Source: a virus. From it: DNA of 64,000 nucleotides. The stretch lies in the IMG/VR virus record IMGVR_UViG_3300021962_000060, positions 1 to 64,000 of that record; one strand, written 5' to 3'. Position numbers and translations under genes: made by a program. Under the pieces are notes generated by a model. It saw only the letters and a program-made list of their open reading frames with translations. It made no database searches and had not been told where the DNA came from. The number at the start of each line of letters is the position of its first letter. The first letter of the stretch is position 1. This document shows, piece after piece, positions 1-52,103 of the stretch.

Positions 1-244
1 TGAAACCGGACTGCCGGTGGAAATCACCGACCTGTTCACCGAAACCGATGCCAAGGCTCCGGCGTACCATCTCGCCCACCGGATCCTGTCCGCCGGCGTG
101 GTTCGCCCCGAATGGGCGAATGTTCAGGTGGTCACGATGCGAACCGGAACCATCACCACCGGAAAGGGTGGAACCATCACCGGCGAAACCACCACCACCG
201 GAAAGGTCGGCACCGTTCGGGTGTTCATCACGCCGGTGTCCTGA
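1..244 (+). CDS. Array family A protein, 5'-truncated by window edge
   Basis: C-terminus (YHLAHRILS..RPEWANV..ITGETTTT..RVFITP) aligns by eye with 706-1089 and 2059-2448; followed by terminator. Confidence 0.8.
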   Translation, partial: ETGLPVEITDLFTETDAKAPAYHLAHRILSAGVVRPEWANVQVVTMRTGTITTGKGGTITGETTTTGKVGTVRVFITPVS

Positions 245-260
245 CCGAACCGAACCACCG

Positions 261-300
261 AAAGGGAACCCCGACCCGAAAGGGTCGGGGTTCTCCCTTT
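261..300. terminator. Intrinsic terminator hairpin
   Basis: AAAGGGAACCCCGACCC-GAAA-GGGTCGGGGTTCTCCCTTT directly after stop at 244. Confidence 0.85.
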
Positions 301-303
301 CCC

Positions 304-367
304 GACCCACTTTCGGGTCTGGCGTACTGACCCACTTTCGGGTCGAGCGTACTGACCCACTTTCGGG
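304..367. repeat. Tandem repeat, 25-bp period, about 2.6 copies
   Basis: GACCCACTTTCGGG starts at 304, 329, 354, linked by TCnnGCGTACT. Confidence 0.9.
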
Positions 368-515
368 CAGGGATCCCTGGAACCAAACGGCTGCCAGATC
401 GAGGTCGGCTGGAGTACTGATCTAACGTTAGACCCGATTGAGTAAACAATCCCTTCCCATCGGCTGAGTCCGATCAGATAAGAAAACTCTAACGTTAGAC
501 CGCAAAATCCTAAAG

Positions 516-560
516 GCGGGTGTACAGCGGGGTCGCTACGCTGGGGAGCCGTACACCCGC
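516..560. repeat. Spacer hairpin, variant II
   Basis: GCGGGTGTAC...GTACACCCGC enclosing GGGTCGCTACGCTGGGGA; paralog at 1847-1892. Confidence 0.85.
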
Positions 561-650
561 TGGGCAGATTGTTGCGATTGCAACTAGTTGAGTGAATGTT
601 GCAATTGCAACGAACACGTTTCTGGGCGGCGCATCGACCCAATCCCAGAA

Positions 651-686
651 ACGGAGAAGCCCCGCCGTTTCCGGCGGGGCTTCCGT
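651..686 (-). terminator. Terminator for 706-1089
   Basis: GAAGCCCCGCCG-TTTC-CGGCGGGGCTTC hairpin downstream of the stop. Confidence 0.75.
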
Positions 687-705
687 TGTTGCGGTGCGGT
701 GCGGG

Positions 706-1089
706 TCAGGCCACGGGTGCGATGACCACGTGTGTCGCACGTGTCGTCGTCGTTTCGCCGGTAATCTCCGTGCGGGTCGCCGTAACGTTCCGCATTCCGA
801 CAACGGCGACATTGTGCCAGTAGGGACGAATTGCGCCGTGTGAGAGCGCACGGTGCGCCGTGTGGTACACCTTGTCCGAACCGTCCACGGGGAACAGGTC
901 AGAAACGTCCACGCTCTTGCCGGTGCGGATGACCGTCAGCACCACGGCGAGAAGAGCGGTGACCCGCGCCCAATTCGCACGGTTGGAACCGTTGCCATTG
1001 TCGCGGTACTCCGTGACCAATTTCTGCGCCTGTTGCGCGTCGGACGGCGACACTTTCGCCGTGGTGAATGTTGCCTGCTTTGTGTCCAT
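706..1089 (-). CDS. Array family A protein (MDTKQ...)
   Basis: AGGAGG SD before ATG at 1089; homologous to 1-244 and 2059-2448. Confidence 0.85.
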   Translation of the reverse strand: MDTKQATFTTAKVSPSDAQQAQKLVTEYRDNGNGSNRANWARVTALLAVVLTVIRTGKSVDVSDLFPVDGSDKVYHTAHRALSHGAIRPYWHNVAVVGMRNVTATRTEITGETTTTRATHVVIAPVA

Positions 1090-1344
1090 CGGACACCTCC
1101 TTGTGTGCCGGTGCGATGACCGGATGAGAAGAGCGTAGCAGAAACAAACGGAGAAACACAACGCTAGGGCAACAATTAGAGAATGTTCACCTAAAGTTTA
1201 CTTACACAATGCAAATAATAATCATTCACTAATTTGCATAATAATGCAGTCGAGAAGATGACGGTTCTATCGTTAGAGCCGGCGACCACACCCCTGGTTT
1301 CTAACGTTAGAAATCTGACTTTATGAGAGGCTTGCATCTGGCCG

Positions 1345-1386
1345 GCTGGTGCGCTATTACGCTCGTTCCTCACTTAGCGCACCAGC
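1345..1386. repeat. Spacer hairpin, variant III
   Basis: GCTGGTGCGCTA...TAGCGCACCAGC with GCTCGTTCCTCAC loop; paralog at 2654-2694. Confidence 0.9.
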
Positions 1387-1478
1387 GGCTCTAACGTTAT
1401 ATACATTATAACTTTATTACACATTTCTAACGATACAAATATTTCTTCTAACGTTGGGAAAAATCTAGTCTAGGGTCG

Positions 1479-1506
1479 TTGACTTTCCCTGACGAGTTAC
1501 TAAGAT
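1479..1506 (+). promoter_or_regulatory. Sigma70/SigA-type promoter for a leaderless transcript
   Basis: TTGACT-N16-TAAGAT; ATG 6 nt after the -10 box, no SD. Confidence 0.7.
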
Positions 1507-1512
1507 GAAGAC

Positions 1513-1713
1513 ATGGCAAAACAAATACACACACTCACCATTCAGTTCCCGACCCGCCAAGCATTAGCAGACTTTGTGCGAGACCATTTCGAGGCTGGTC
1601 TAGCAGTCTACGAGGCTGACGCTCTTGACCCCGAATATGTTGGCAATCCTGGTTCCAACTCATACGTCCTGCGTCGTGCCGGTCACAAGCCTGAAGAAAT
1701 GCGGGTCGCCTAA
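1513..1713 (+). CDS. Cassette hypothetical protein (66 aa)
   Basis: ORF between promoter and terminator hairpins. Confidence 0.8.
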   Translation: MAKQIHTLTIQFPTRQALADFVRDHFEAGLAVYEADALDPEYVGNPGSNSYVLRRAGHKPEEMRVA

Positions 1714-1846
1714 CGACCCTCGTTCATGGTCATGCCGATCCGAAAGAGGGTCGTCATGACCACAACCAAACGTTAGAACCCGCCCCAAAAGGCGGGTCTC
1801 TTTCGGATAACAATTCTAACGTTAGGAATACAGTTCTAACGTTAGG

Positions 1847-1892
1847 GCGGGCGTGCGGTGGGGTCGCTACGCTGGGGAACAAGCACGCCCGC
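1847..1892. repeat. Spacer hairpin, variant II
   Basis: GCGGGCGTGC...GCACGCCCGC; compensatory changes relative to 516-560. Confidence 0.85.
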
Positions 1893-2058
1893 TGGCACGA
1901 TAGTTGCAAACGCAACAAGTTGAGTGAATGTTGTAAATGCAACGAACGCAATAGTTCTAACGATAGGAACCGGACTTTATTCGACCGTCGCGGCACTTCG
2001 GTACAAACGAAAGACCCCGCCCTCTCGGGCGGGGTCTCGTTGCCGTCGCTCTCGTTTG

Positions 2059-2448
2059 TCAGTTTGGCGTGATGAAGACTCGCCCGTGCCCCTTGCTCGT
2101 TGCCGTCTTGCCCGTGATGCTCGTTGCCGTTTCGCCTTCCACGCTCACGAACATAGTCACGCTGAAAGTCTTCCCGAGCATCTTCTCAAACGTGCGAGTC
2201 CGAGACCACGCAACGTGGTACTCGTTGCTCTTGCCAATGAGAGGTCGAACCTCGTTGGTGACTTCCACGCTGTCGCCCGTGATGAGAGCGACGAGGACAG
2301 CAAGGCGAATCGCATCGCCAGCCTTGCGAGTGTCCGAGTCGGGACTTCCCGAGCGATTGCCCAACGGGGGGAGACTTGCGAGGTGAGCGACAGCCTTCGC
2401 CATTGTCGCTTTGTTCACCTTCGCCTTTCGTAGTGTCGTAGTTTCCAT
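2059..2448 (-). CDS. Array family A protein (METTTLRKAKV...)
   Basis: GAAAGG SD; upstream TTGACT-N17-TAGTTT; terminator at 2011-2040; homologous to 706-1089. Confidence 0.85.
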   Translation of the reverse strand: METTTLRKAKVNKATMAKAVAHLASLPPLGNRSGSPDSDTRKAGDAIRLAVLVALITGDSVEVTNEVRPLIGKSNEYHVAWSRTRTFEKMLGKTFSVTMFVSVEGETATSITGKTATSKGHGRVFITPN

Positions 2449-2653
2449 TGCCTTGCCTTTCGTGAATCGGCGTTATTGCCGTACCTAGGAAACTAATCGG
2501 TATTCGCAAGCGAGTCAAGGGGAAATGTTTATTCATAGTCACGCATAACGATACAAGAAACCGGCGAGTCGAATCTCTATCGTTAGAGCCGGCAAGTCGA
2601 GCCTACTTTCTAACGTTAGAGAAATGACTTTATGAAAGCCCTAACGTTAGAGC

Positions 2654-2694
2654 GCTGGTGCGCTATTTGCTCGTTCCTCACGTAGCGCACCAGC
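2654..2694. repeat. Spacer hairpin, variant III
   Basis: GCTGGTGCGCTA...TAGCGCACCAGC flanked by CTAACGTTAG at 2641 and 2699. Confidence 0.9.
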
Positions 2695-2805
2695 CGCTCT
2701 AACGTTAGAGAACAGCAGAAGTTTAGCGTATTTCTAACGATAGGAACTCGACTTTATGAAGGCTCTAACGTTTCAAAAAAACTTTGTAACGATACAAAAC
2801 AATGC

Positions 2806-2834
2806 TTGACCACCTTGTAGGTATCGCATAGGAT
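2806..2834 (+). promoter_or_regulatory. Sigma70/SigA-type promoter
   Basis: TTGACC-N17-TAGGAT. Confidence 0.7.
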
Positions 2835-2873
2835 TATCTCATCGGGAACGGAGTACCGATACGAAAGGAAGTT

Positions 2874-3089
2874 ATGGCAGTTTCACGGGCAGTCAAGGAC
2901 TTGTTCCTGACCGACGAACTCGGTTGGCAAGAAGCAGAACAAATCGAGGCTATCGTTAGCACGGTGTCTCCCGAATGGCAGAACGCTCTGCGGTTCTGTA
3001 TCGTTATCGGTCGCAAGGGCGACAGCGACGCTTTCCGCGACCTCGCCAAGCGTATCCTGCGGAACGAGCAAACGTTAGGGGGTGAGTGA
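2874..3089 (+). CDS. Cassette hypothetical protein (71 aa)
   Basis: GAAAGGAAG SD, promoter upstream. Confidence 0.8.
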   Translation: MAVSRAVKDLFLTDELGWQEAEQIEAIVSTVSPEWQNALRFCIVIGRKGDSDAFRDLAKRILRNEQTLGGE

Positions 3090-3090
3090 G

Positions 3091-3246
3091 ATGCCCAAGC
3101 GTTCACGCTGGTACTACGAAATCCGTTGGCTGGTTCGTGTAACGTTCTGGACAGCCGTATGCCTGATAGCGACGGCGACCCTCGTATCGTTAGCGGTGTT
3201 CCTGACGGACTTCGTGAACTACGTCTGGCACGGTACAGGTCGATAG
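3091..3246 (+). CDS. Small single-pass membrane protein (51 aa; not in ORF track)
   Basis: MPKRSRWYYEIRWLVRVTFWTAVCLIATATLVSLAVFLTDFVNYVWHGTGR*; purine-rich SD; followed by terminator at about 3265-3296. Confidence 0.7.
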   Translation: MPKRSRWYYEIRWLVRVTFWTAVCLIATATLVSLAVFLTDFVNYVWHGTGR

Positions 3247-3323
3247 CGTATCGTTAGACAAGTCGAAACCGGCCCTATCGTTAGGGTCGGTTTTCGCTTC
3301 CGCCATGCCCTAACGTTAGAAGC

Positions 3324-3364
3324 GCCGGTGTTCTAACGTTGATGCTCAACGTTAGAACACCGGC
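3324..3364. repeat. Spacer hairpin, variant I
   Basis: Perfect 19-bp stem GCCGGTGTTCTAACGTTGA, loop TGC. Confidence 0.95.
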
Positions 3365-3510
3365 TTGTCTAACGATAGAAAAGTTATTGTATTTAGTAGA
3401 TTTCTAACGATAGCAATCAGACTTTATCAGAGCTCTAACGTTTCAAAATATTTCTAAAGATTTCCTACAATAGTGTGGAATAGCCTTACTGGTCGCCTAG
3501 AGTTACTGAC

Positions 3511-3795
3511 ATGAACACATACACAGAACACAACAGCCCCGAAGAAGCCATCGCCTACTGCGCCGAGCACAATGACGAACTCTTCCCCGAAGCCAAAGAA
3601 CTCACCATCACCGGCACACTCTCCTGCCCGATGTGCCGTTCCAAAGCGTGGATCATCATGCCTGCCGAGTGGGTCGATGCGTTCCTGTCCGGTGCGTTCG
3701 CACAGGATGCGTTTCCGAACATGACATCCTCACAGCGAGAGCGGTTCATCACAGGGATCTGCCCATCCTGCTGGGGCAAGATGTTCGCACGCTGA
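3511..3795 (+). CDS. Cassette protein with two CxxC motifs (Zn-binding)
   Basis: CPMC...CPSC; leaderless (TAGAGT 7 nt before ATG); terminator at 3806-3836. Confidence 0.85.
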   Translation: MNTYTEHNSPEEAIAYCAEHNDELFPEAKELTITGTLSCPMCRSKAWIIMPAEWVDAFLSGAFAQDAFPNMTSSQRERFITGICPSCWGKMFAR

Positions 3796-3859
3796 ACCAA
3801 CGTTAGAAGCCCGCCCTACGGGGCGGGCTTCTTTCGGCTAGCGACACTAACGTTAGAGC

Positions 3860-3901
3860 GCCGGTGTTCCAACGTTAGCTCGCTAACGTTGGAACACCGG
3901 C
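3860..3901. repeat. Spacer hairpin, variant I
   Basis: GCCGGTGTTCCAACGTTAGC-TC-GCTAACGTTGGAACACCGGC; compensatory T-A to C-G. Confidence 0.95.
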
Positions 3902-4036
3902 TGTGCTAACGTTACAGCCGAACTGGTATTTAGTACGGTTCTAACGATACAGGCTCGACTTTACCTGAGCTCTAACGTTTCAAAATATTTCCTAAATAGT
4001 TGTGAAATGGTCTTTCGGGCTGTTACCATCTTGTCT

Positions 4037-4351
4037 ATGAGCATTCATCACATCACAGACCAAGACATTGTTGATCACCTCGTCTATTCAGGTGCGAGCC
4101 AGTACAGTTGGTATCGTATCTTGGAATGGGACGGCAAGGACGTTCACGTTGAGATGTACACAGGTGAGGGCGGCATCGTTACAAAGTCTTTCCTCATCTC
4201 TCAGTTGCGAGATGTTATCGTTAGCATCCTCAACGATGTGGAACCCTACAGCCCCCGGATTGCGCGAGCAGTCGTAGAAGATGACTTTGACTCGGACGAC
4301 GCGGATGTGGTTCTCCAGATCGCAACGTTAGGGGAGGTGGTCTTCGGCTGA
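4037..4351 (+). CDS. Cassette acidic hypothetical protein
   Basis: Start re-called at ATG 4037 (TACCAT -10 box 7 nt upstream); terminator at 4377-4406. Confidence 0.85.
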   Translation: MSIHHITDQDIVDHLVYSGASQYSWYRILEWDGKDVHVEMYTGEGGIVTKSFLISQLRDVIVSILNDVEPYSPRIARAVVEDDFDSDDADVVLQIATLGEVVFG

Positions 4352-4429
4352 CGAACCCCCAGTCGGTCGAACGTTAGAACCCGCCCTTCGGGGCGGGTTT
4401 CTTTCGACCCGGTACTCTAACGTTAGAGC

Positions 4430-4470
4430 GCCGGTGTTCTAACGTTGACGCTCAACGTTAGAACACCGGC
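4430..4470. repeat. Spacer hairpin, variant I
   Basis: Perfect 19-bp stem, loop CGC. Confidence 0.95.
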
Positions 4471-4604
4471 TGTTCTAACGTTAGAACTTTTACTGACTTT
4501 AGCACATTTCTAACGATAGATAAGTGACTTTATGTCGGCTCTAACGTTTCAAAATAATTTGTAAACATTAGTCTGGAATTGGTAGAACTTGCTAGAATCT
4601 CTCT

Positions 4605-5234
4605 ATGAACAAAACCACCTGTATCTACTGCGGAGTACCGAGAGTCCACCCTGAACGAATCTATCGTTACTGCAACAGCGAAGAGTGCGTGAAGAGGGGA
4701 CAGTCCTACGAATCACCTATCTATGACAGCACCACGGTGACTGACAGCACGGCAGAACTGACCGATACCATCGCCACGCTGGAATCAGAACTAGCAATCG
4801 CTAGCGATAGAATCGCAACCCTCACGGGGCGGGTCGCTGAATTTCAGGCACAAATTGACAAGGGGTTCGCTGATGCCCACAAGGTGTACGACAACGCTAT
4901 CAGCGTCGGTCGGTTTGATTGTCTCCGTTCTATGGTTAGGCAGCATAACGAATTCGTGATGTCTAGTGGGCTATCGACCCACCCTGATGAATACGTTAGA
5001 GACATCTACGGGCAGATGTTGTCACTACTGGAAAGAGACATGAAGAAGGTAGGAATCAGAACATACGGAACGTTAGGCGAGTGGGTCGTTCTCTCTCCTG
5101 ACACCGAATACAACCATGCCCGATACTTGGCAGAGGACAAGGGGACACGCATCTACGAAGGTGAAGTGGTGCGGGTCGGTTACGAAACCGAAACCGGAAT
5201 GGTCATAGAACCAGCCCTCGTTATCAAATACTGA
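4605..5234 (+). CDS. Cassette protein: N-terminal C4 Zn ribbon, coiled coil, GrpE-like C-terminus
   Basis: CIYC..YC..EC; heptad region; VGIRTYGTLGE...VVRVGY...VIEPALV resembles the GrpE head; leaderless TAGAAT. Confidence 0.7.
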   Translation: MNKTTCIYCGVPRVHPERIYRYCNSEECVKRGQSYESPIYDSTTVTDSTAELTDTIATLESELAIASDRIATLTGRVAEFQAQIDKGFADAHKVYDNAISVGRFDCLRSMVRQHNEFVMSSGLSTHPDEYVRDIYGQMLSLLERDMKKVGIRTYGTLGEWVVLSPDTEYNHARYLAEDKGTRIYEGEVVRVGYETETGMVIEPALVIKY

Positions 5235-5299
5235 ATCCAACGTTAGAGGCCGGCTCCGAAGCCGGCTCTCTTTCGCTGGCATCCCCTAACGTTAGAAGC

Positions 5300-5340
5300 G
5301 CCGGTGTTCTAACGTTGAGCATCAACGTTAGAACACCGGC
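5300..5340. repeat. Spacer hairpin, variant I
   Basis: Perfect 19-bp stem, loop GCA. Confidence 0.95.
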
Positions 5341-5474
5341 TGTGCTAACGTTAGAGAATCGCATAGATTGAGTGAACTTCTAACGATAGAGGCTCGACTT
5401 TATCCAAGCTCTAACGTTTCAAAATAATCTAGAAATAGTAGTGAAATGGTTAGTGGAGTCGCTAAGATGTCGCT

Positions 5475-5855
5475 ATGACCTACAACCTCAGATTCACCTA
5501 TCGACCCCTTTCCGATTCGTTGATGATTTACGTTGATAACGATAGATTCACGAACGCTGATACCGTGATTCAAGCCCAGTTGGGCGATGACCTAACATTG
5601 GAGATTGCCAACATTGACGGATTCCCGCTGTTCTCCGGTGTTCAGATTATGAACGCATCGTTCATTCCGGTGTGGACGGAACCCCTTGACAAGTTCCTAA
5701 CAATACAACTGCTGGACGCATTCGTTGATACCCTCTCCCGTCTTTCGTGGAAAGCCAACGAAACGGAACCGGAGAACATCTTTGAGCGAATCATTGGGGA
5801 ACGCTGGACGATGCTGGCAGAACGGAAAGACCTTGCTATCACGATGCCCGACTGA
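5475..5855 (+). CDS. Cassette hypothetical protein (126 aa)
   Basis: Leaderless (TAAGAT 6 nt before ATG); terminator at 5881-5910. Confidence 0.85.
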   Translation: MTYNLRFTYRPLSDSLMIYVDNDRFTNADTVIQAQLGDDLTLEIANIDGFPLFSGVQIMNASFIPVWTEPLDKFLTIQLLDAFVDTLSRLSWKANETEPENIFERIIGERWTMLAERKDLAITMPD

Positions 5856-5933
5856 ATCGACCCACTCGGCACAAACGTTAGAGGCCGCCCTTCGGGGCGG
5901 CTCTCTTTCGCCATCATCCCCTAACGTTAGAGC

Positions 5934-5974
5934 GCCGGTGTTCTAACGTTGACGCTCAACGTTAGAACACCGGC
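5934..5974. repeat. Spacer hairpin, variant I
   Basis: Identical to 4430-4470. Confidence 0.95.
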
Positions 5975-6154
5975 TGTTCTAACGTTAGAAGATCTCTAAC
6001 GTTTAGTGAGTTTCTAACGATAGGAGCTCGACTTTATGAGCTCTCTAACGTTTCAAATTTCTTTCTAACGATACAAGAAAGTCGGGAAAGAATGTCGGAA
6101 AGGGTAGGGTAGGTGCTAGTCTTTCTCTTGTCGGAAGGGCAGTCCTCCCGACAG

Positions 6155-6170
6155 TGTTCCACGTGGAACA
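6155..6170. promoter_or_regulatory. parS: parS-consensus palindrome
   Basis: TGTTCCACGTGGAACA matches the bacterial chromosomal parS consensus TGTTYCACGTGRAACA. Confidence 0.7.
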
Positions 6171-6191
6171 CTCCAAACGAAAGGTACAAGA

Positions 6192-6467
6192 ATGTCGGAC
6201 TTTGAGATTGTGGATGCGAAGAGCGTTCAGTTCGTGAAGAGGGGTCGCAAGTCGGTCGCTGATCCCAAGTTGGTGGAAGCCCTCAAGAAACTGCCTAACG
6301 GCAAGGCGATGGTCATCGCAAGCCTCAAGCAGGATCCCAAGGCGGACACTTACGCTAACGATAAGGCGCGGGTCGCTAGTCAGATCCGCACGGCTTGTAA
6401 GTCGGCAGGGCTGGACAGTTTCTCCATTCGGTGGACTGAGACCGGCGTTCCGCAGGTCGTTCGCTGA
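6192..6467 (+). CDS. Array family B small basic protein (FVKRGRKS), putative DNA-binding
   Basis: GAAAGG SD; clear similarity to 7306-7599 and 7921-8211. Confidence 0.9.
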   Translation: MSDFEIVDAKSVQFVKRGRKSVADPKLVEALKKLPNGKAMVIASLKQDPKADTYANDKARVASQIRTACKSAGLDSFSIRWTETGVPQVVR

Positions 6468-6545
6468 ATCGACCCACTCAGGGCAAACGTTAGGGGTTGG
6501 GCTTGCCGCCCGGCCCCTTTCGTTCGCTCCGGCCTCTAACGTTAG

Positions 6546-6589
6546 GGCAGGTGTTCTAACGTTAGCACGCTAACGTTAGAACACCTGCC
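6546..6589. repeat. Spacer hairpin, variant I
   Basis: GGCAGGTGTTCTAACGTTAGC-AC-GCTAACGTTAGAACACCTGCC; compensatory C-G to A-T. Confidence 0.95.
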
Positions 6590-6718
6590 GCGCTAACGTT
6601 AGCGTGATGCTCCAATTGAGTACACATCTAACGATACAAGAAATCCGCATAATAGTTCTTATTTCACCAATTCGACCGGCTAGGATAGTCTCACCATCCA
6701 ATAGAGAAAGGTCAAGTA

Positions 6719-7003
6719 ATGGAAAGAGTTAGTGGACAACTGAGCATCCCTACTGAGAACTGGGTCATCTTCTGTAAATACATGGATGTTCTGACCGACA
6801 TGATCCCAGTGATCGACGCACATGATAAGATTATTTCCGAAATCCCCTCCATTCTTCTGGGTGTTCCCCAGAAATTGGCAAACATCATCGTTCACCATTT
6901 GATCGGCTTGGACATTATGGGGAACATTGGTTACGCCAAGGAATTAGTCGAAGAAGCACTGTCCTATCATTACAAGATGCCGATGACGCTTGTGATTGAC
7001 TGA
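6719..7003 (+). CDS. Cassette hypothetical protein (94 aa)
   Basis: GAAAGG SD; terminator at 7022-7051. Confidence 0.8.
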   Translation: MERVSGQLSIPTENWVIFCKYMDVLTDMIPVIDAHDKIISEIPSILLGVPQKLANIIVHHLIGLDIMGNIGYAKELVEEALSYHYKMPMTLVID

Positions 7004-7075
7004 TAGTCGGCTGAAACGTTAGAACCCGCCCGAAAGGGCGGGTTTCTTTCGCATCGGAGTCCTAACGTTAGAAGC

Positions 7076-7116
7076 GCCGGTGTTCTAACGTTAGATGCTA
7101 ACGTTAGAACACCGGC
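7076..7116. repeat. Spacer hairpin, variant I
   Basis: Perfect 19-bp stem, loop ATG. Confidence 0.95.
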
Positions 7117-7305
7117 TGGGCTAACGTTAGAGGAGCTCTAACGTTTAGTGCGGTTCTAACGATAGACACTCGACTTTATGAGCTGTCTAACGTTTCAAAA
7201 TATTTTCTAACGATACAACAAAGTCCTAGAATAGTAGGGGAACGCCTAGTGGAACTGGTAGTGTCTTACTTGTCGGGGAACAAACGAACCGACAGAGAGG
7301 TAGAA

Positions 7306-7599
7306 ATGTCCAATCCGAAGTCCGGCGACGAGTTTGAGATTGTCTCGTCGTCATCTATCCAGTTCGTGAAGCGTGGTCGTAAGTCACTCGCAGACCCGAA
7401 ACTCATCGAACAACTCAAGATGCTCAACAAGGGACAAGCGATGGTGATTCGCAAGTACCAGCAAGACCCGAAGTCGGCAACCTACGCTAACGATAAGGCT
7501 CGCGTCGCCAGCCAGATTCGGACAGCGTGTAAGACCGCCAACCTCGTCGGATTCAGCATCGTCTGGTCGCCCGAGGGAATCCCGCAGGTCAAACTCTGA
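7306..7599 (+). CDS. Array family B protein
   Basis: GAGAGG SD before ATG 7306; FVKRGRKS...YANDKARVASQIRTAC. Confidence 0.9.
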   Translation: MSNPKSGDEFEIVSSSSIQFVKRGRKSLADPKLIEQLKMLNKGQAMVIRKYQQDPKSATYANDKARVASQIRTACKTANLVGFSIVWSPEGIPQVKL

Positions 7600-7687
7600 C
7601 CTAGCGTTAGAGAGGGAGCCGCCCCAACGTTAGGGGCGGCTTTCTTTCGACCCAGCTCTCTAACGTTAGACGCTAACGTTAGACGGA

Positions 7688-7724
7688 CGGGCGTAACGTT
7701 AGAAACGCTCTAACGTTACGCCCG
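7688..7724. repeat. Spacer hairpin (diverged)
   Basis: CGGGCGTAACGTTAGA-AACGC-TCTAACGTTACGCCCG. Confidence 0.9.
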
Positions 7725-7920
7725 CGCTAACGTTAGAACCTTATCCATAAAATTTTGTATCCAATTCCTAACACAAATACCATCAATCGACTTTATCTAA
7801 AATCTAATCCTAATGTTATAAAAACTTTATAAGGCCTAACGTTAGAACCTTATCTAAAGGAAATGCCTCGACTTTCGCCGAGGCATTCCTTAGGACTAGG
7901 CTTTGGGTTTGTGTTCGGAA

Positions 7921-8211
7921 TTACCGAACGATTTGGGGAATGCCCTCAGGTGACCAAAGGATTCGGAATTCCGTAACCTTTGCCTCACGGCAAGCGGTGC
8001 GGATTTGCGAGGCAATGCGAGCCTTTTCGTTTGCGAAATTCGCAGACTTTGGATCGACCGCAAGGCTTTTCACAGCCATTGCCTTGCCCACTCCGAGGGT
8101 TTTGAGTGCCTCAACGAGTGCGGGATTGACTTTGGATTTGCGTCCCCGCTTGACGAAGGAAATTTCGGTGGAATTGACCACCTCAAATTCCGGGTTGTTT
8201 GATGTTGCCAT
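7921..8211 (-). CDS. Array family B protein (inverted cassette)
   Basis: AAAGG SD; extended -10 TGCTATGAT at 8274-8282; terminator at 7857-7892. Confidence 0.9.
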   Translation of the reverse strand: MATSNNPEFEVVNSTEISFVKRGRKSKVNPALVEALKTLGVGKAMAVKSLAVDPKSANFANEKARIASQIRTACREAKVTEFRILWSPEGIPQIVR

Positions 8212-8432
8212 TGTGTTGCCTTTCTTTGGGATTTGATTGGAATTTGTGTGAATAGCCTTGTCCACGAATTCCATCATAGCATAGTGAAATTGTGAATAAA
8301 AATTCTGGGTATTTGTAGGTCATTGCAGATGCAATAAGTCGAGCTTTAGGTCGAGCTTTGTGCCGGCCTTGTTTGTAACGTTAGAGCTCATAGGCAAAGG
8401 CTAACGTTAGAGAAAATCTAACGTTAAGCAGG

Positions 8433-8473
8433 CGGGTGCTCTAACGTTAGATTTTCTAACGTTAGAGCACCCG
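8433..8473. repeat. Last spacer hairpin of the array
   Basis: CGGGTGCTCTAACGTTAGA-TTT-TCTAACGTTAGAGCACCCG. Confidence 0.95.
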
Positions 8474-9072
8474 TTCTAACGTTAGAGCTTTAAATAAAAA
8501 ATTTAATGCAAATCCTAATCCTTATTCTTACAATAACTTTACGGGGAACTTTTCAATTGATCTTTTCAATCAATTATGCTCAACCGCTCATAAAGCCAGG
8601 GGAATGCTCGACCTTACCCCTGTATCTATCCCTACTGATAGGGACACCTATAACCGCCGGCTAACCCGATCATATTTCTGACCGGAATTCCTGAACAATA
8701 CCGATTATTGCCGGCTACAAAGAACCAAATTTCATTGATGTAATCAACCAGAATATTTCTTCTGATAGTCTGATTTGATAATCAAGATTATTACTACATA
8801 GATTTTTTCTAATATGATCCAACCTTTATACGGAGCTCATTTTGAGTCCGATCAAACACTTTTCTATATAGGCTGCTCTAACCAAAACACTAACCGGCCG
8901 GCTAAGGAGATACCTTCCCAGTGTCAATATTACTAGAGAGAACTATAACACACCCCAGGTATATTTTTCGCTAGAAAACACACAAAAACCAAAACAAACA
9001 AACAAAAAAACCTGAGAACACCCATCAATTTAACAAAAATTGAACATTATTGAGCGTAAAACACAAGCCTGT

Positions 9073-13425: not shown

Positions 13426-13428
13426 TAG

Positions 13429-13501
13429 CACCTCAAGTAGGACTTGAACCTACAACCTACAGATTAGAAGTCTGTTGCTCTATCCATTAAGCTATTGAGG
13501 T
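13429..13501 (-). tRNA. tRNA-Arg(TCT)
   Basis: Acceptor ACCTCAA/TTGAGGT, anticodon loop CTTCTAA, GGTTCAAGTCC T-arm; no encoded CCA. Confidence 0.92.
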
Positions 13502-13735: not shown

Positions 13736-13737
13736 AG

Positions 13738-13809
13738 TATCTCAGGTAGGATTTGAACCTACAACCAATAGATTAAAAGTCTACTGCTCTACCATTGAGC
13801 TACTGAGAT
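13738..13809 (-). tRNA. tRNA-Lys(TTT)
   Basis: Acceptor ATCTCAG/CTGAGAT, loop CTTTTAA, GGTTCAAATCC. Confidence 0.92.
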
Positions 13810-14504: not shown

Positions 14505-14672
14505 ATTTGCTCCTTAAGTAGTGTGTCTAAACGAAAACCGTTTCGGCATCGCTAAATCAGTAGCAAAACGAAATTGTCTACAAACCAAAATCGCTTTACT
14601 AGTAAGTTATATCAATAAGCATCACCTCCATATAAGTACATCTCTCTATTATACCATTTATACAAGCACTAG

Positions 14673-14744
14673 TACCCCTGCGTGGAATCGAACCACGTTT
14701 ATCATTTTATAAGAATGACATCCTAACCAGTAGATGACAGGGGC
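14673..14744 (-). tRNA. tRNA-Ile(TAT)
   Basis: Acceptor GCCCCTG/CAGGGGT, anticodon arm TCATT-CTTATAA-AATGA, GGTTCGATTCC. Confidence 0.85.
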
Positions 14745-15894: not shown

Positions 15895-15925
15895 ATTTGT
15901 CTCCTTTGCTGATTAATGGTAATAG

Positions 15926-15998
15926 TGAGCGTGATGGGACTCGAACCCATACTGTAAAGATTTTAAGTCTTCTGCCTCTGCCATTGGGCTACACGCCC
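15926..15998 (-). tRNA. tRNA-Leu(TAA), short variable arm
   Basis: GGGCGTG/CACGCTC acceptor, TAGCCCAATGGCAGAGGC D-arm, loop CTTAAAA. Confidence 0.9.
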
Positions 15999-21173: not shown

Positions 21174-21473
21174 TTACAAATTTCTTTTCCATAGCACAGC
21201 CTCCTTTGCTGTATCAAAAGTGATAGAACCACCAAACATTTTCCTTCTTTCTTTTGCAGTAAAACCACCCCAAATACCAAATTCTTCATTATTGGTAACA
21301 GCATTAACTAGACATTCAATTTGAACATCACAAGTGTTACAAATAGTCACAGCTTTGCCAATAGCAATTCTAATCTTTGAATTAGAAATTGGCCCCTCAT
21401 CAACAAAGAACATATCTGCACCTTTGTCTTTGCAAGCTGCTTTTGATTTAATATTTTGAGCATCAATCTTCAT
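21174..21473 (-). CDS. whiB: WhiB-family transcription factor
   Basis: C...CxxCx5C and GIWGG followed by basic ERRK. Confidence 0.9.
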   Translation of the reverse strand: MKIDAQNIKSKAACKDKGADMFFVDEGPISNSKIRIAIGKAVTICNTCDVQIECLVNAVTNNEEFGIWGGFTAKERRKMFGGSITFDTAKEAVLWKRNL

Positions 21474-28793: not shown

Positions 28794-29023
28794 AACTGTT
28801 TCCCTTTCTATGATTTATCTTGCCCAATACCTGAACACTTGCGAGATAATACGCAGAGATAATACCAAACAAACACTTACAGAAATAGTAAGCAATACTC
28901 TCGCATTTGACTCGCCCATTGCTTTCCACAAATACGAGACTATCATAGGGACAAACCCAGGGAAAACTGAACAGTAATTTTGTTTTTTGGCGAGAAAAGA
29001 TTTGCACAAACGCAAGGAAATGC

Positions 29024-29140
29024 GTCGAGACCGGCCCTCTAACGTTAGAGGGGTTCTAACGTTACAGATGCTCTAACGTTACAGAGGAAATACATCAAAG
29101 ATAGGGCCGGCTTTTAGAAAGAACAAGCTCGAGATTTTAC
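29024..29140. repeat. Isolated remnant of the array spacer module
   Basis: CTAACGTTA(G/C) at 29039, 29056, 29073 (17-bp spacing), preceded by TCGAGACCGGCCCT; GCTCGAGATTTTA downstream. Confidence 0.85.
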
Positions 29141-30172: not shown

Positions 30173-30529
30173 TTACTTGCTGGAAGCCTTAGCATTGCTA
30201 GTCTTGATCGCCTTGATATCAGAAGTCTTTACTTCGGTAGTAGTGTTACGCTCAACACTATCAGCACCCATACGAGTAGCCTTGAAGTAGAGTTTCTGCT
30301 CAGTAGCATCAAAACGAATAATAACCTTGTAATTCAACTTCTTAGCCTGTGCGCGAATACGCTGTTGCATTGAATTATAAGCCTTACCAGGCTGAACGCC
30401 AGACAAAGCAAAACGCTCTCCGTTATTAGCAGACTCAGTTAAAGCGCTAATAATTGCCTGAAGTTCTTCACTAACACGACCGGAACGAGTAAGTTCGGGG
30501 AAAGTGTCCACTTTGCTCAGATTAATCAT
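30173..30529 (-). CDS. Small basic protein, possible distant family B homolog or nucleoid-type protein
   Basis: AAGGAG SD, own promoter (TATAGT) and terminator; RSGR...ALT..NGERF...QRIRAQAK...IRF. Confidence 0.75.
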   Translation of the reverse strand: MINLSKVDTFPELTRSGRVSEELQAIISALTESANNGERFALSGVQPGKAYNSMQQRIRAQAKKLNYKVIIRFDATEQKLYFKATRMGADSVERNTTTEVKTSDIKAIKTSNAKASSK

Positions 30530-30639
30530 TTGTATTCTCCTTGATAGTGGGCGGTTGCCCTTGACGGAAAACACTATACACGCCCCATAGGGCAGGCGTT
30601 GCGAAAAGGCAAGAAATGTTATTTCTCTCGAAAAGAAAT

Positions 30640-35384: not shown

Positions 35385-36137
35385 TCAACTCCATTGAAAA
35401 GCAATCGGTATACCGGATTCCGAGGATTCCTTTTCAAGTTTCTCTTTTTCATACCCATGAATTTTAGTAAACTCAACTCTATAGTTGAACCAGCCAATAA
35501 CGCCATTCCAAAACTTATCTTCTGTTGTATCGCGAAGTTTAATCAATTCCTCGTCTGTTAATAAAAAGCTTAAAACACCAAGAGGCATGTAAACTGTCAA
35601 ATCATAGTTAACATCTTTATCAGCAGAATACTTTTTTAGAAGCATCTGATAGTCTTCAACTATCCTTTTAACAGCAGGGCCGGCATAGTGATCAATTGCA
35701 TCATTTTCATTTCTTATTCTTGGACAAAAATCATCAACACTTGTTATGGTTCCAAAAGATCTACAAACAAGCGGTCTATAACCATATATACTGCATCCAC
35801 CTTTATAGAAGGCACAATGACGTTCAGTTTCTCCACCAGGCTTCCAGTCATCATCATGCATTGCATCAATTAAATCCTGAATGACACCGCCAATCCACTC
35901 ATTAGCAAAGTCTTCACCTTTGCTTTCCATGAGGCGATAGCATTCCTGCTTCAAACTAAAAGCAATATTCGCACATTCCATCATGGGAATGGTCAAACCA
36001 ATTTTACAACAATTACCAGAGCCAAGACACTTGTATTTTGTTTGATTTTGTTTGGCTTCTAAAACACGAACTTGATTGTAAATCATATCAAGATGTGCAA
36101 AAGTAGTAATATCTTTAATATCGACACTTCTTCTCAT
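35385..36137 (-). CDS. YkgJ-family Cys-cluster (Zn/Fe-S) protein
   Basis: CLGSGNCC...CAFY..GCSIYGYRPLVCR. Confidence 0.85.
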   Translation of the reverse strand: MRRSVDIKDITTFAHLDMIYNQVRVLEAKQNQTKYKCLGSGNCCKIGLTIPMMECANIAFSLKQECYRLMESKGEDFANEWIGGVIQDLIDAMHDDDWKPGGETERHCAFYKGGCSIYGYRPLVCRSFGTITSVDDFCPRIRNENDAIDHYAGPAVKRIVEDYQMLLKKYSADKDVNYDLTVYMPLGVLSFLLTDEELIKLRDTTEDKFWNGVIGWFNYRVEFTKIHGYEKEKLEKESSESGIPIAFQWS

Positions 36138-36433
36138 CTAAGTTTCTTACCCTTTTTTTTCAAAGCATTTGCTTTACGCATTTCTCGTCTTTTTCTTTCG
36201 ACCATCTCTTGCATTGGCGATTTAGGTCTCCTGAGAGTTGTACTCTTCAGATTACGACCTTTTCCTCTATACTTTAAAAGATCATACTTTTTAACCCAGT
36301 TGTACAAAGCCTGAGGTGTGACTTTAATGTTATAGGTCTTTTCAAGATGCTTACAGATATCAGTCAAATTCATACGGCGTTTAACATACATCTCGTAAAG
36401 AAACTGCTTATCTTTATATGGTTCTAAAGCCAT
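36134..36433 (-). CDS. Small basic HTH protein
   Basis: YKDKQFLYEMYV...LTDIC...TPQALYNWVKKY. Confidence 0.75.
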   Translation of the reverse strand: MALEPYKDKQFLYEMYVKRRMNLTDICKHLEKTYNIKVTPQALYNWVKKYDLLKYRGKGRNLKSTTLRRPKSPMQEMVERKRREMRKANALKKKGKKLR

Positions 36434-37004
36434 GAGTAATACCATACCACATCCCGATGCCTATTGCGTCGGTAATATCACTATCAAGCCCTTCAGAAAC
36501 AAAATTTTCTATTTTTTGATCCAAAATATCCTTGACGCGCTGTTTTCTTTCATTACTTAGTCTTTGCTGAATTCCCTTTTTACCGAATTCTTTTTCTATC
36601 GATGCAGCCTCTTTTTTAGAAACATTCTTATACCCAATTCCAGATTTCCAAGTTAAAGGATTTACATCAGTTACATTCTTACAATAATCATCAAGAATGC
36701 CCCATGTAAAACCAATAATATATGAAATAATACGACTTGATTGAAAGTTCTGAATAAATACAGATTGCTCAATCACGCAAGCATCGGGCTTGTAGTTACC
36801 ACATATTGCCGGCAATTCATTCTTTATTATTGTAAATTTACGACTCATTTCAGGAGTTGATGCAAGATGTATCTTGCCATAATCTACAACAGTGATATTG
36901 TTTTCACTTATATCAAGGACAGACCAAGCGAGCGAATGAGATGCAGGATCTATGGAAAGAACACGACAGTTTTTTACTTTAGAAACAAGAGAAGATATAC
37001 TCAT
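36414..37004 (-). CDS. ruvC: RuvC-like resolvase
   Basis: VLSIDPA, VIEQ, P.TWK, DITDAIGIG. Confidence 0.85.
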   Translation of the reverse strand: MSISSLVSKVKNCRVLSIDPASHSLAWSVLDISENNITVVDYGKIHLASTPEMSRKFTIIKNELPAICGNYKPDACVIEQSVFIQNFQSSRIISYIIGFTWGILDDYCKNVTDVNPLTWKSGIGYKNVSKKEAASIEKEFGKKGIQQRLSNERKQRVKDILDQKIENFVSEGLDSDITDAIGIGMWYGITHGFRTI

Positions 37005-51065: not shown

Positions 51066-51291
51066 TTACATCCTCAACTTTTTTCCATTTTGACATTAAA
51101 CGATCAAACTCTGTTGTGCCGGCTACAACTCCAATAACTTCTTCTAATTCAGAATTATATAATATACATTCGTTAACGACAGTACATTTTTTGCACCCAT
51201 TAACAGCATACTCAATTTTTTCTAAATTATAAGAAACCCAATGGGAGTGATGATTGTCATTGGCACAAATAGCTTGATTTCGCCAATTCAC
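51046..51291 (-). CDS. Divergent WhiB-like protein
   Basis: WRNQAIC...CKKCTVVNEC...GVVAG. Confidence 0.75.
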   Translation of the reverse strand: MNWRNQAICANDNHHSHWVSYNLEKIEYAVNGCKKCTVVNECILYNSELEEVIGVVAGTTEFDRLMSKWKKVEDVNDNNWE

Positions 51292-51482
51292 TTATCTAAC
51301 TCTTTAAGCTTTGCTTCAATCTGCTCATCAAGAGATGCCCAAAGCTTTTGCCAAGAGGATTCATCATCTAAAGACGAAGCCAAAATCTTTGCCCCTGCAT
51401 CTAAACGAAGTGACTCATAGTTTCCAAGATTTTTGGTGATTCCAATGGAAGCCCAAATTTCTGCTTTGTCATTATCAATCAT
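51288..51482 (-). CDS. Small phage protein (TKNLGNYESLRLD)
   Basis: Packed ORF. Confidence 0.75.
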   Translation of the reverse strand: MIDNDKAEIWASIGITKNLGNYESLRLDAGAKILASSLDDESSWQKLWASLDEQIEAKLKELDK

Positions 51483-51913: not shown

Positions 51914-52103
51914 TTTGAATCTTCTTTTGAGTTTGTTCAATAAACTTTTCAAGTTTAGCAACTTCAATATCTACAGAATGAGCACACTGAATACAGGTGA
52001 CATCAACCCATAACTCACCTAGACTATAATATTGTTCACCAATATATTTAGTACCACCGCATCTTTTACATATCCAATTTATTGGCGGAAACTTAATCAC
52101 CAT
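51900..52103 (-). CDS. Small Zn-ribbon protein
   Basis: CKRC...CIQC. Confidence 0.65.
   Translation of the reverse strand: MVIKFPPINWICKRCGGTKYIGEQYYSLGELWVDVTCIQCAHSVDIEVAKLEKFIEQTQKKIQNDNK

What the first reader, a model, noticed from the sequence alone, without database searches (positions are those of the whole stretch)
516..8473. Spacer hairpins conserve structure and length rather than sequence
Seen: the variant I stem GCCGGTGTTCTAACGTT(GA/AG) stays a perfect 19-21 bp inverted repeat despite substitutions. Examples: TTCCAAC/GTTGGAA at 3860, GCAGG/CCTGC at 6546, CGGGTGCTC/GAGCACCCG at 8433. The loop is TGC at 3343 and its reverse complement GCA at 5319. Two other sequence families (516/1847 and 1345/2654) fill the same slot with the same 41-46 nt span. 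Flanking CTAACG boxes sit 57-59 bp apart in nine modules and can pair beyond a short bubble. Inference: selection on an extruded cruciform or ssDNA hairpin (recombination, nicking or injection-pause substrate), or template-switch homogenisation. These are separate from the terminators, which lie upstream.
Basis: partly seen in the sequence, partly recalled or inferred. Interest (0 to 1): 0.8.

Follow-up and report, generated by a model that had tools for sequence, protein, structure and literature searches.

The report
Clamped palindromes between actinophage gene cassettes
At one end of an uncultivated freshwater actinobacterial phage, every small early-gene cassette is separated from the next by a near-perfect DNA palindrome whose two arms change together. 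This is a real and unusually elaborate boundary/operator element, but its function is not yet known.

Summary
Window 1-8500 is a GC-rich array of about 14 one-gene cassettes at the end of a 91-kb siphovirus with two WhiB genes, so probably an actinophage. Each spacer carries a terminator, then an interrupted palindrome, then oriented CTAACGWTAG boxes, then a promoter, often leaderless.

The 16-21 bp hairpin arms are perfectly complementary. Across 48 hairpins from 13 contigs of related phages, 97.5% of stem cells pair. There are 80 double (compensatory) changes against 21±3 in shuffles, almost no wobbles, and no pairing just outside the stem.

"Structure rather than sequence" is only half right. 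Eight of 18 stem pairs never vary. The true invariant is a frame, CNGGNG-N25-33-CNCCNG, that encloses at least seven unrelated interiors, and one of these does not fold. Orthologous hairpins keep their sequence while their loops drift.

My best reading (0.45) is a sequence-specific, protein-bound boundary/operator element. Its arms would be equalised by intrastrand template switching, and it supplies the homology for PeSL-like cassette shuffling: three G0/L088 crossovers map inside the spacer. A functional DNA hairpin or cruciform (0.25) remains open. An RNA role and an attC-like role are disfavoured.

The scan has noted conceptually similar cassette-bounding palindromes on other DNA.

The parts
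3324..3364 (.). Type I clamp hairpin (spacer E): GCCGGTG-TT-CTAACGTTGA / loop TGC / mirror arm
   Evidence: 19-bp perfect inverted repeat
3860..3901 (.). Type I clamp hairpin (spacer F), box change CCAACGTT mirrored in both arms
   Evidence: 20-bp perfect inverted repeat, loop TC
4430..4470 (.). Type I clamp hairpin (spacer G); the extended interrupted palindrome runs 4417-4484
   Evidence: DNA fold -35.8 kcal/mol, z -11.9
5300..5340 (.). Type I clamp hairpin (spacer H), loop GCA
5934..5974 (.). Type I clamp hairpin (spacer I)
6546..6589 (.). Type I clamp hairpin (spacer J), clamp variant CAGGTG/CACCTG
   Evidence: 21-bp perfect inverted repeat; the same variant sits at the orthologous place in L088
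7076..7116 (.). Type I clamp hairpin (spacer K); the four-box palindrome runs 7062-7130
7688..7724 (.). Type I variant hairpin CGGGCG-TAACGTTAGA in a convergent spacer that has no promoter
   Evidence: 16-bp perfect inverted repeat; orthologues in L088, L098, G1, L118, L139, L158
8433..8473 (.). Boundary hairpin CGGGTGCTCTAACGTTAGA, between the array and the low-GC core, upstream of the family A gene 7921-8214(-)
   Evidence: orthologues in 10 lineages, with the stem conserved, or changed on both arms, and the loop free
517..559 (.). Type II clamp hairpin (CGGGTG...CACCCG, no box inside), convergent spacer
1848..1891 (.). Type II clamp hairpin (CGGGCG...CGCCCG); two stem positions changed on both arms relative to 517
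1346..1385 (.). Type III clamp hairpin (CTGGTG...CACCAG) with a conserved 18-nt loop, divergent spacer
2655..2693 (.). Type III clamp hairpin, framed by boxes at 2641 and 2699 with the same geometry as type I
422..8485 (.). Field of about 55 palindromic CTAACGWTAS boxes, 6-8 per spacer. The oriented imperfect boxes CTAACGATAG and CTAACGTTTC lie 35 and 66 bp after the outer-right box
29039..29082 (.). The only box cluster outside the array (3 boxes), in a 430-bp spacer of the core. A single box also lies 21.4 kb from the array in the two related records G001 and G002
3805..3832 (+). Intrinsic terminator of cassette 3511-3795 (GC stem followed by TTCTTTCG), upstream of the hairpin. Equivalent terminators lie in every spacer, for example 6499-6516 and 7028-7043
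4593..4607 (+). -10 box TAGAAT lying 6 nt before the ATG (leaderless-type promoter). The same layout occurs at 5463-5477, 3497-3513 and 1501-1515
6192..6467 (+). Family A gene (invariant VKRGRK arm); paralogues at 7306-7599(+) and 7921-8214(-). Always flanked by type I hairpins
706..1092 (-). Family B gene; paralogues at 2-244(+) and 2059-2448(-). Always flanked by clamp hairpins without boxes

Best explanation
The hairpins are the dyad-symmetric cores of protein-bound boundary/operator modules. These modules punctuate an array of independently transcribed early-gene cassettes at one end of a lytic actinobacterial siphovirus.

**Shown**
- Each spacer reads: terminator, outer box, inverted CNGGNG clamps 25-33 nt apart, outer box, oriented boxes, promoter.
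- In tandem spacers the clamps enclose two inverted CTAACGTTAG boxes.
- The frame and the box are conserved as sequence.
- The few tolerant positions change on both arms together.
- The spacer is where cassettes are exchanged between related phages.

**Inferred**
- A dimeric or oligomeric DNA-binding protein reads the boxes and clamps on duplex DNA. Candidates are the phage MerR-type protein at 51479-51967, the array-encoded families A and B, or a host factor.
- Binding coats the spacer, which switches all early promoters together and/or blocks read-through between cassettes.
- Arm-to-arm identity at unconstrained positions is kept by intrastrand template switching in the quasi-palindrome during replication (concerted evolution). 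It is not kept by selection on every base pair.
- The long, near-identical palindrome gives the phage RecA/RuvC machinery its best homology for cassette shuffling.
For: - Boxes: 33 copies against 0.06 expected, confined to the array plus one conserved remote site.
- Oriented box variants follow the direction of transcription, and the 35/31-bp spacing to the promoter is fixed.
- Eight of 18 stem pairs are invariant. The clamp keeps C, GG and G even in hairpins whose arms are not complementary, as in the L158/L126 lineage.
- Clamp pairs occur 14 times in the array against 0.18 in shuffles and 0 in the other 55 kb. The gap is narrow at 25-33 nt (mode 26-28) whatever lies inside, including a type V interior that does not fold.
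- Orthologous boundary hairpins in 10 lineages keep the stem sequence while the loops differ.
- Perfect stems with no bulges and almost no wobbles exceed what hairpin stability would need. That is what templated copying produces.
- G0 and G1 share the spacers (74-82% identity) but not the cassette genes.
- Three G0/L088 crossovers map to the outer-right box, to box 5 and to the hairpin.
- The phage encodes RecA-like, RuvC-like and PD-(D/E)XK proteins.
- Array genes avoid exactly the four codons read by the phage's own tRNAs. This fits earliest expression.
- Precedent: palindromic repeats of unknown function in the right-arm spacers of actinophages (PMC4351075, PMC7302621).
Against: - No box-binding or clamp-binding protein was identified. 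Families A and B gave confident models (pLDDT 83 and 92) with no informative PDB match (best Z 5.8 and 4.7).
- A protein reading two half-sites does not by itself explain why the N positions match. That needs the added, untested template-switch assumption.
- Imperfect arms have persisted through several module duplications in the L158 lineage, so homogenisation is not always fast.
- Inner-box spacing varies from 13 to 15 bp (17-18 bp in one variant), which is awkward for rigid cooperative binding on duplex DNA.
- Hairpins also sit in convergent spacers that have no promoter.
- There are no expression or binding data.
Confidence: 0.45

Rival explanations
1. The DNA secondary structure itself is the functional element. 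A hairpin in single-stranded DNA (at replication forks or in recombination intermediates), or a cruciform extruded by the negative supercoiling behind each strong cassette promoter, acts as a torsional insulator, a recombination hotspot cut by the phage RuvC-like resolvase, or a priming or loading signal.
For: - Double changes far exceed shuffles and are Watson-Crick only.
- Pairing stops sharply at the clamp.
- Sixteen distinct perfect arm variants were seen, against 0.6 expected on random re-pairing.
- Seven different interiors share the stem base and the overall span.
- Type I has 0-8 nt loops, an AT-richer centre and a GC clamp, with z -10 to -12.
- The hairpins lie in DNA outside the transcription units, including convergent spacers.
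- A RuvC-like gene is present.
Against: - Types II to VII have 13-25 nt loops, and type V has no stable fold, so a cruciform cannot be general.
- Eight of 18 pairs never vary, and orthologues conserve sequence rather than just pairing.
- Imperfect arms are tolerated in one lineage.
- Hairpin stability does not require perfect stems.
Confidence: 0.25
2. The element works in RNA. Read-through transcripts fold the palindrome into a back-up bidirectional terminator, an RNase III site or a protein-binding stem-loop that separates the cassette messages, as between the T7 early genes.
For: - Stems of 19-21 bp are the length RNase III accepts.
- Types II and III show covarying stems with conserved loops, a pattern typical of RNA.
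- A palindrome folds on transcripts of either strand.
Against: - Every hairpin lies downstream of a canonical terminator and upstream of the next promoter, or between two convergent terminators.
- No U-tract follows the hairpin.
- Only 5 wobble cells were counted against 80 double changes.
- No Rfam family reached its gathering score.
- RNA data could not be obtained.
Confidence: 0.1
3. The palindromes are site-specific recombination sites of a cassette system, like attC: a folded R box, a bubble, an L box and a short loop. A recombinase encoded in the missing ~13% of the genome, or by the host, would act on them.
For: - The box reads YYYAAC|GTTRRR, like the integron inverse-core and core sites (this consensus is recalled from my own knowledge).
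- The extended palindrome of 68-70 nt has a conserved 2-4 nt bubble.
- The hairpin travels with the 3' end of the upstream cassette in three crossovers.
- Cassette content differs between relatives.
Against: - No tyrosine recombinase, serine recombinase or Y1 transposase in 91 kb.
- The cassettes carry their own promoters and terminators.
- There are 6-8 boxes per spacer, not one site.
- The stems are perfect, without the extrahelical bases that give attC its strand choice.
- The crossovers fall at three different places in the spacer, as homologous exchange would predict.
Confidence: 0.07
4. The palindromes have no function of their own. They are selfish or hitch-hiking quasi-palindromes that spread with the spacer by duplication and stay perfect only through template switching.
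For: - The perfection of the stems.
- Variants are paralogue-specific and copied along with their modules.
Against: - They are kept at the same slot, with the same frame and span, in phages only 70-83% identical in core genes and in at least 12 further contigs.
- Stems are conserved while loops and flanks drift.
- The bubble is never erased.
Confidence: 0.08

Closest known systems
PeSLs (promoter-early stem-loops) of T4-type phages (PMC2839356, PMC4122927)
   Same: Both are repeated composite terminator/promoter spacers that flank small genes of unknown function in a hyperplastic region. In both, insertions, deletions and replacements between close relatives map to the repeats. The mechanism inferred is homologous exchange.
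   Different: - The host and phage type differ: an actinobacterial siphovirus with leaderless-type promoters.
- In a PeSL the stem-loop is the terminator. Here the palindrome is a separate third element, framed by clamps and embedded in 6-8 palindromic boxes.
- The whole array forms one terminal block with its own codon usage.
- Mini-circles were not tested.
Palindromic intergenic repeats of actinophages: the Cluster O 17-bp TGTTCGGNNNCCGAACA (PMC4351075) and the Cluster EG 18-bp GATCAACCNNGGTTGATC (PMC7302621)
   Same: Both are short dyad-symmetric boxes in many copies, concentrated in the spacers of the right-end small genes. They are conserved although the neighbouring genes differ. They are presumed to be sites for dimeric binding proteins, with function unknown. 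Leaderless SigA-type promoters lie nearby.
   Different: Here the sequence is different, and the boxes are stacked 6-8 per spacer at fixed spacings. They are combined with a 38-46 bp clamp-framed palindrome that shows compensatory change. Those papers describe nothing comparable.
Stoperators of Cluster A mycobacteriophages (cited within PMC4351075)
   Same: Both are many copies of one repressor site placed between genes, proposed to stop transcription across the genome.
   Different: Stoperators are asymmetric, single, oriented with transcription, and belong to temperate phages with a known repressor. Here the sites are palindromic and clustered, the phage record has no integrase, and no repressor is known.
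Integron attC sites / CALINs
   Same: Both involve gene cassettes separated by imperfect palindromes of conserved length and structure. The ends resemble AAC/GTT core sites, there is a central bubble, and the element sits at the 3' end of the cassette.
   Different: - No integrase.
- The cassettes have their own promoters and terminators.
- The stems are perfect, without extrahelical bases.
- There are many boxes per spacer.
- The crossovers are not at one fixed point.
Hairpin promoters of phage N4 virion RNA polymerase (from my own knowledge)
   Same: Both are DNA hairpins with 3-nt loops, next to small early genes at the genome end that enters first.
   Different: N4 stems are 5-7 bp and transcription starts about 11 nt from the loop. 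Here the stems are 16-21 bp and lie 125-175 bp upstream of SigA-like -10 boxes. The 2195-aa ORF is a tape measure protein, not a virion RNA polymerase.

Membership tests
PeSL-like mobile regulatory cassette | Repeated spacer that combines a terminator and an early promoter, flanking small genes of unknown function | tested here: met
   Terminator plus a -10/leaderless promoter in each of 7 aligned spacers. The cassette proteins have no Pfam or PHROG function.
PeSL-like mobile regulatory cassette | Insertions, deletions and replacements between close relatives have their endpoints in the repeats | tested here: met
   G0 against L088: three junctions, all inside the spacer. G0 against G1: spacers shared, genes not.
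PeSL-like mobile regulatory cassette | The stem-loop of the repeat is itself the transcription terminator; the phage is T4-type | tested here: not met
   The palindrome is separate from the terminator and lacks a T-run. The phage is a siphovirus with WhiB genes.
PeSL-like mobile regulatory cassette | Excised mini-circles | not testable with these tools
Actinophage palindromic operator-like repeats (Cluster O / EG type) | Short dyad-symmetric motif in many intergenic copies, conserved across related phages despite gene turnover | tested here: met
Actinophage palindromic operator-like repeats (Cluster O / EG type) | Bound by a dimeric regulator | not testable with these tools
   Only candidates were found: a MerR-type HTH at 51479-51967 and a weak wHTH at 36134-36445.
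Integron / attC | An IntI tyrosine recombinase next to the array | tested here: not met
   PF00589 is absent from the 91-kb record, which is 87% complete. A gene in the missing part cannot be excluded.
Integron / attC | Promoterless cassettes, each with one attC carrying extrahelical bases | tested here: not met
   The cassettes have their own promoters and terminators, there are 6-8 boxes per spacer, and the stems are perfect.
Structured RNA family (Rfam) | A match at or above a family's gathering score | tested here: not met
   The best hits score 34 bits or less against gathering scores of 50 or more. They are generic hairpin look-alikes.
REP/RAYT or IS200/IS605-type hairpin elements | An associated Y1 (HUH) transposase | tested here: not met
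   PF01797 is absent from the record.
N4-type hairpin promoter | A 5-7 bp stem with a 3-nt loop, the start site about 11 nt downstream, and a giant virion RNA polymerase | tested here: not met
   The stems are 16-21 bp and lie 125-175 bp from the -10 boxes. The largest ORF is a tape measure protein.

The most novel reading that the evidence does not exclude
The clamp frame (CNGGNG-N26-28-CNCCNG) is a DNA-level 'cassette joint' in which the hairpin form matters. Each cassette class would carry its own interior (types I to VII), recognised by the protein that the cassette encodes: family A with box-type hairpins, family B with non-box hairpins. Together they would form an integrase-free, hairpin-guided system for exchanging and insulating early or anti-host genes in freshwater actinophages.
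Probability: 0.12. Interest if true: 0.8.

Novelty: new variant of a known kind. Interest (0 to 1): 0.55.

Why it matters
Repeated palindromes in the early-gene arms of actinophages have been catalogued for years without a function. This family offers an unusually informative case for four reasons.

- There are dozens of copies spread over many diverged lineages.
- The compensatory change is clean.
- A fixed clamp frame accepts different interiors.
- Hairpin type is tied to the neighbouring gene family.

It gives a concrete system for asking how lytic phages insulate, co-regulate and shuffle one-gene early cassettes. It also allows a test of whether perfect palindromes in phage DNA are kept by selection or by template switching.

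The accompanying split in codon usage, with host-like early genes and a core that matches the phage's own tRNAs, adds an independent handle on the timing of expression.

Tried and rejected
**Searches for close relatives or hosts**
- INPHARED phages gave no match, near or distant.
- Representative bacterial and archaeal genomes showed only scattered single box pairs in unrelated phyla, with no array, prophage or host clue.
- IMG/VR held only two relatives, which are the same species.

**RNA evidence**

**RNA families**
- Rfam gave nothing at gathering score.

**Recombinases and transposases**
- PF00589, PF00239 and PF01797 were absent.
- The 'resolvase-like' ORF at 39836 has no domain.

**Binding protein**
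- HTH_3 was absent.
- Pfam on 20 small ORFs in 9-20 kb found no DNA binder.
- Family A: AF2 pLDDT 83, best Foldseek E 0.05, best VIA Z 5.8.
- Family B: pLDDT 92, best Z 4.7.
- The protein atlas gave only unnamed viral clusters.
- Families A and B are not detectably homologous.

**Ideas considered and dropped**
- N4-type hairpin promoter: the giant ORF is a tape measure protein.
- Chimeric assembly as the cause of the GC jump: the same junction recurs in independent assemblies.
- Chi-like reading of CTGGTG: the N positions vary.
- L120 and L152 carry CGATACTAACGTTAGTATCG palindromes but are unrelated phages, so they were left out of the statistics.

**Literature**
- A search for the box sequence found nothing relevant.

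Full report
**Setting.** The window is bases 1-64000 of a 90,921-b IMG/VR virus record, classed as linear and 87% complete.
- The first 8.5 kb has 49-55% GC and the rest has 32-42%.
- The core encodes a 2195-aa tape measure protein, portal, protease and capsid-like proteins.
- It also encodes DNA polymerase III alpha, DnaB, a DnaG-type primase, RecA-like, RuvC-like and PD-(D/E)XK proteins, and two WhiB proteins.
- It is therefore a siphovirus, most likely of an actinobacterium. Related contigs come mostly from freshwater and estuarine metagenomes.
- All core genes lie on the minus strand. The left 8.5 kb holds about 14 small genes, mostly on the plus strand.

**The observation.**
- CTAACGTTAG occurs 33 times against 0.06 expected: 32 copies in 422-8485 and one at 29039.
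- An alignment of the seven tandem spacers gives the module order:
  - stop codon;
  - intrinsic terminator (GC stem followed by TTCTTTCG);
  - outer box;
  - a 2-4 nt mismatch;
  - hairpin;
  - a second mismatch;
  - outer box;
  - 35 bp on, the oriented box CTAACGATAG;
  - 31 bp on, CTAACGTTTC;
  - the promoter.
- In four spacers a TANNNT -10 box ends 6-7 nt before the ATG, which indicates leaderless messages. The same spacing holds in the L088 orthologues.
- As single-stranded DNA the extended palindromes fold at -30 to -36 kcal/mol, z -10 to -12.

**Not an assembly artefact, and not unique.**
- Two IMG/VR records, G001 and G002, are 99.8% identical to each other and 71-83% identical to this phage in collinear core genes. 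They have the same GC jump, the same terminal array, and a single remote box 21.4 kb away.
- One metagenome scan returned many further arrays, for example L158 with 102 boxes, and L126, L088, L139, L084, L140 and L059.
- Between G0 and G1 only the spacers (74-82% identity) and the boundary gene are shared. The cassette genes differ.

**Covariation.** I chose hairpins by their inner box pair, 13-15 bp apart, and not by flank pairing.
- This gave 48 hairpins and 23 unique arm pairs.
- Sixteen of the 23 are perfect over 16 nt, and all 16 differ from one another. Random re-pairing of arms gives 0.6 perfect pairs, with a maximum of 7 in 10,000 trials.
- On alignment A3 the 18 stem pairs are 97.5% paired, and nine pairs carry double changes.
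- There are 80 double-change cells against 20.9±3.3 in shuffles (0/500). One pair shows all four Watson-Crick types (GC 15, CG 11, UA 11, AU 9). Only five cells are wobbles.
- Sliding the register collapses pairing to 27-40%. The four columns just outside the stem pair at 41.7%, no better than shuffles.

**Sequence is conserved too.**
- Eight of the 18 pairs never vary.
- The arm reads C-N-G-G-N-G-Y-T followed by CTAACGTT. C1, G3, G4, G6 and most of the box are fixed. Variation sits at N2, N5, Y7 and a few box positions.
- In the L158/L126/L074/L102 lineage several hairpins are imperfect, for example CTGGTGCT opposite CTGGAGTC. Both arms still keep the CNGGNG pattern, and these imperfect pairs recur in several modules.
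- The boundary hairpin next to the conserved family A gene can be followed through ten lineages. Seven share CGGGTGCT and three have CGGGCGTT on both arms. The loops differ (ttt, ata, atg, aaa, caa, atac, gtat) and so do the flanks.
- Clamp variants are stable between G0 and L088 at orthologous places. So most of the covariation is between paralogous modules. I estimate that at least 10-12 independent double changes are needed to explain it.

**The frame.** I searched for CNGGNG followed 20-39 nt later by its exact complement.
- This finds 14 sites in the G0 array, 0.18 in shuffles and none in the other 55 kb.
- Among 93 unique motif pairs across the family, 66 have both N positions complementary.
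- The gap is 25-33 nt, with a mode of 26-28.
- The frame encloses at least seven unrelated interiors:
  - type I, the box pair;
  - types IV and V, in L158, L126 and L153;
  - type VI, in L140, with a T-to-A change at N2 mirrored on the other arm;
  - type VII, in G1 and L103.
- Type III at 2655-2693 sits between boxes at exactly the type I distances.
- Types II, III, IV and VI have 9-13 bp stems with 13-25 nt loops. Type V has only the six clamp pairs and does not fold better than shuffles (z -0.8).
- Hairpin type follows the neighbouring gene family in every array examined. Family A genes lie among type I hairpins, or type VI in L140. Family B genes lie among types II/III, IV/V or VII.

**Cassette exchange.** L088 is 80-92% identical to G0 and lacks G0 3453-4417 and 6603-7130.
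- Three-way alignments place the crossovers at the outer-right box (spacers J/K), at the oriented box 5 (spacers E/G), and within the hairpin or outer-right box (spacers H/F).
- All three lie inside the conserved spacer. The left arm stays with the upstream gene each time.
- Three different positions fit homologous exchange between repeats, as described for PeSLs (PMC2839356, PMC4122927). They do not fit a single site-specific cut.
- No tyrosine recombinase, serine recombinase or Y1 transposase is present in the record.

**Weighing the mechanisms.**
- RNA is disfavoured. The hairpins lie after canonical terminators and before the next promoter, or between two convergent terminators. No U-tract follows them, wobbles are nearly absent, and no Rfam family reaches its threshold. 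Expression data could not be obtained.
- The Watson-Crick-only symmetry points to DNA.
- Pure structural selection fits poorly for three reasons. The stems are conserved as sequence. Stability does not need perfection. The same frame holds interiors that cannot extrude or even fold.
- A pure protein-site model does not explain why the unconstrained N positions match.
- I therefore favour (0.45) a sequence-specific, protein-bound boundary/operator element. Its arms would be equalised by intrastrand template switching, an established property of quasi-palindromes (from my own knowledge), and it doubles as the homology for shuffling.
- A DNA hairpin that functions in its own right remains a serious rival (0.25).
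- Candidate binders are a MerR-type protein (51479-51967), a weak winged-helix protein (36134-36445), families A and B, or a host factor. Families A and B gave confident models with no informative fold match.

**Comparison with known systems.**
- As a spacer, the module works like a PeSL.
- As a box field, it resembles the unexplained 17-18 bp palindromes of Cluster O and Cluster EG actinophages (PMC4351075, PMC7302621).
- The clamp-framed, covarying palindrome with exchangeable interiors is not described in those papers. The box sequence finds no relevant literature.
- I class it as a new variant of a known kind.
- The scan has recorded conceptually similar palindromes bounding phage cassettes on other DNA. 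I treat that as a lead, not as evidence.

Noticed in passing
window 1-8300 versus 9000-64000; tRNAs at 13428-13501, 13737-13809, 14672-14744, 15925-15998: There is a sharp split in codon usage inside one phage. Array genes have GC3 0.49-0.76, while the five long core genes sampled have GC3 0.27-0.32. The four phage tRNAs (Arg-TCT, Lys-TTT, Ile-TAT, Leu-TAA) read AGA/AAA/ATA/TTA. Those codons make up 52/62/22/25% of their codon families in core genes but only 10/26/4/6% in array genes. This suggests the array is host-adapted and expressed first, while the core depends on the phage's own tRNAs.
   Followed up: partly
window 2-2448 and 6192-8214; loci L059, L126, L153, L158, L103, L139, L084, L140: The interior type of the hairpin tracks the neighbouring gene family in all arrays. 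Family A genes lie among box-type hairpins, and family B genes lie among clamp hairpins without boxes. The arrays share a large-scale order: core, then the family A block, then varied cassettes, then the family B block.
   Followed up: partly
window 568-612 and 1900-1945; also next to type V hairpins in L158, L126, L059: A second palindromic box, GTTGCA-NN-TGCAAC, occurs in pairs about 30 bp apart in the convergent spacers beside type II and type V hairpins.
   Followed up: no
window 300-365: The unit ACTGACCCACTTTCGGG(T/C) is directly repeated (three copies of GACCCACTTTCGGG) just after the terminator of the truncated first gene.
   Followed up: no
window 29020-29110: The remote three-box cluster is bracketed by the 9-bp inverted repeat ACCGGCCCT...AGGGCCGGC followed by TTTT, in a 430-bp spacer between minus-strand genes. 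A single box at the same relative position occurs in G001 and G002.
   Followed up: partly
window 30173-30574 (-): This 133-aa core protein shows weak similarity (19% identity; shared GR.S, L, G, P, R, Q columns) to the array's family A proteins. It may be a distant fourth paralogue.
   Followed up: no
window 706-1092 (-) and homologues (alignment A4): Family B gives a very confident AlphaFold model (pLDDT 92, pTM 0.85). The model has no match better than Z 4.7 among 48,161 PDB representatives.
   Followed up: partly
window 21237-21446 (-) and 51100-51285 (-): Two WhiB-family genes are present, both above the Pfam cut-off. This points to an actinobacterial host for a phage with only about 35% GC.
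   Followed up: partly
loci L120 (827-1395) and L152 (572-635): An unrelated low-GC contig family uses the same core box inside a different 20-bp palindrome, CGATACTAACGTTAGTATCG. The palindromes are stacked into perfect inverted repeats of up to 33 bp. There is no protein similarity to this phage.
   Followed up: no
contig ends of G000, G001, G002, L088, L158: In five assemblies (four distinct phages, since G001 and G002 are 99.8% identical) the array runs into a contig end. The terminase is missing from the 91-kb record. Either the repeats break the assemblies, or the array abuts the physical genome end.
   Followed up: no
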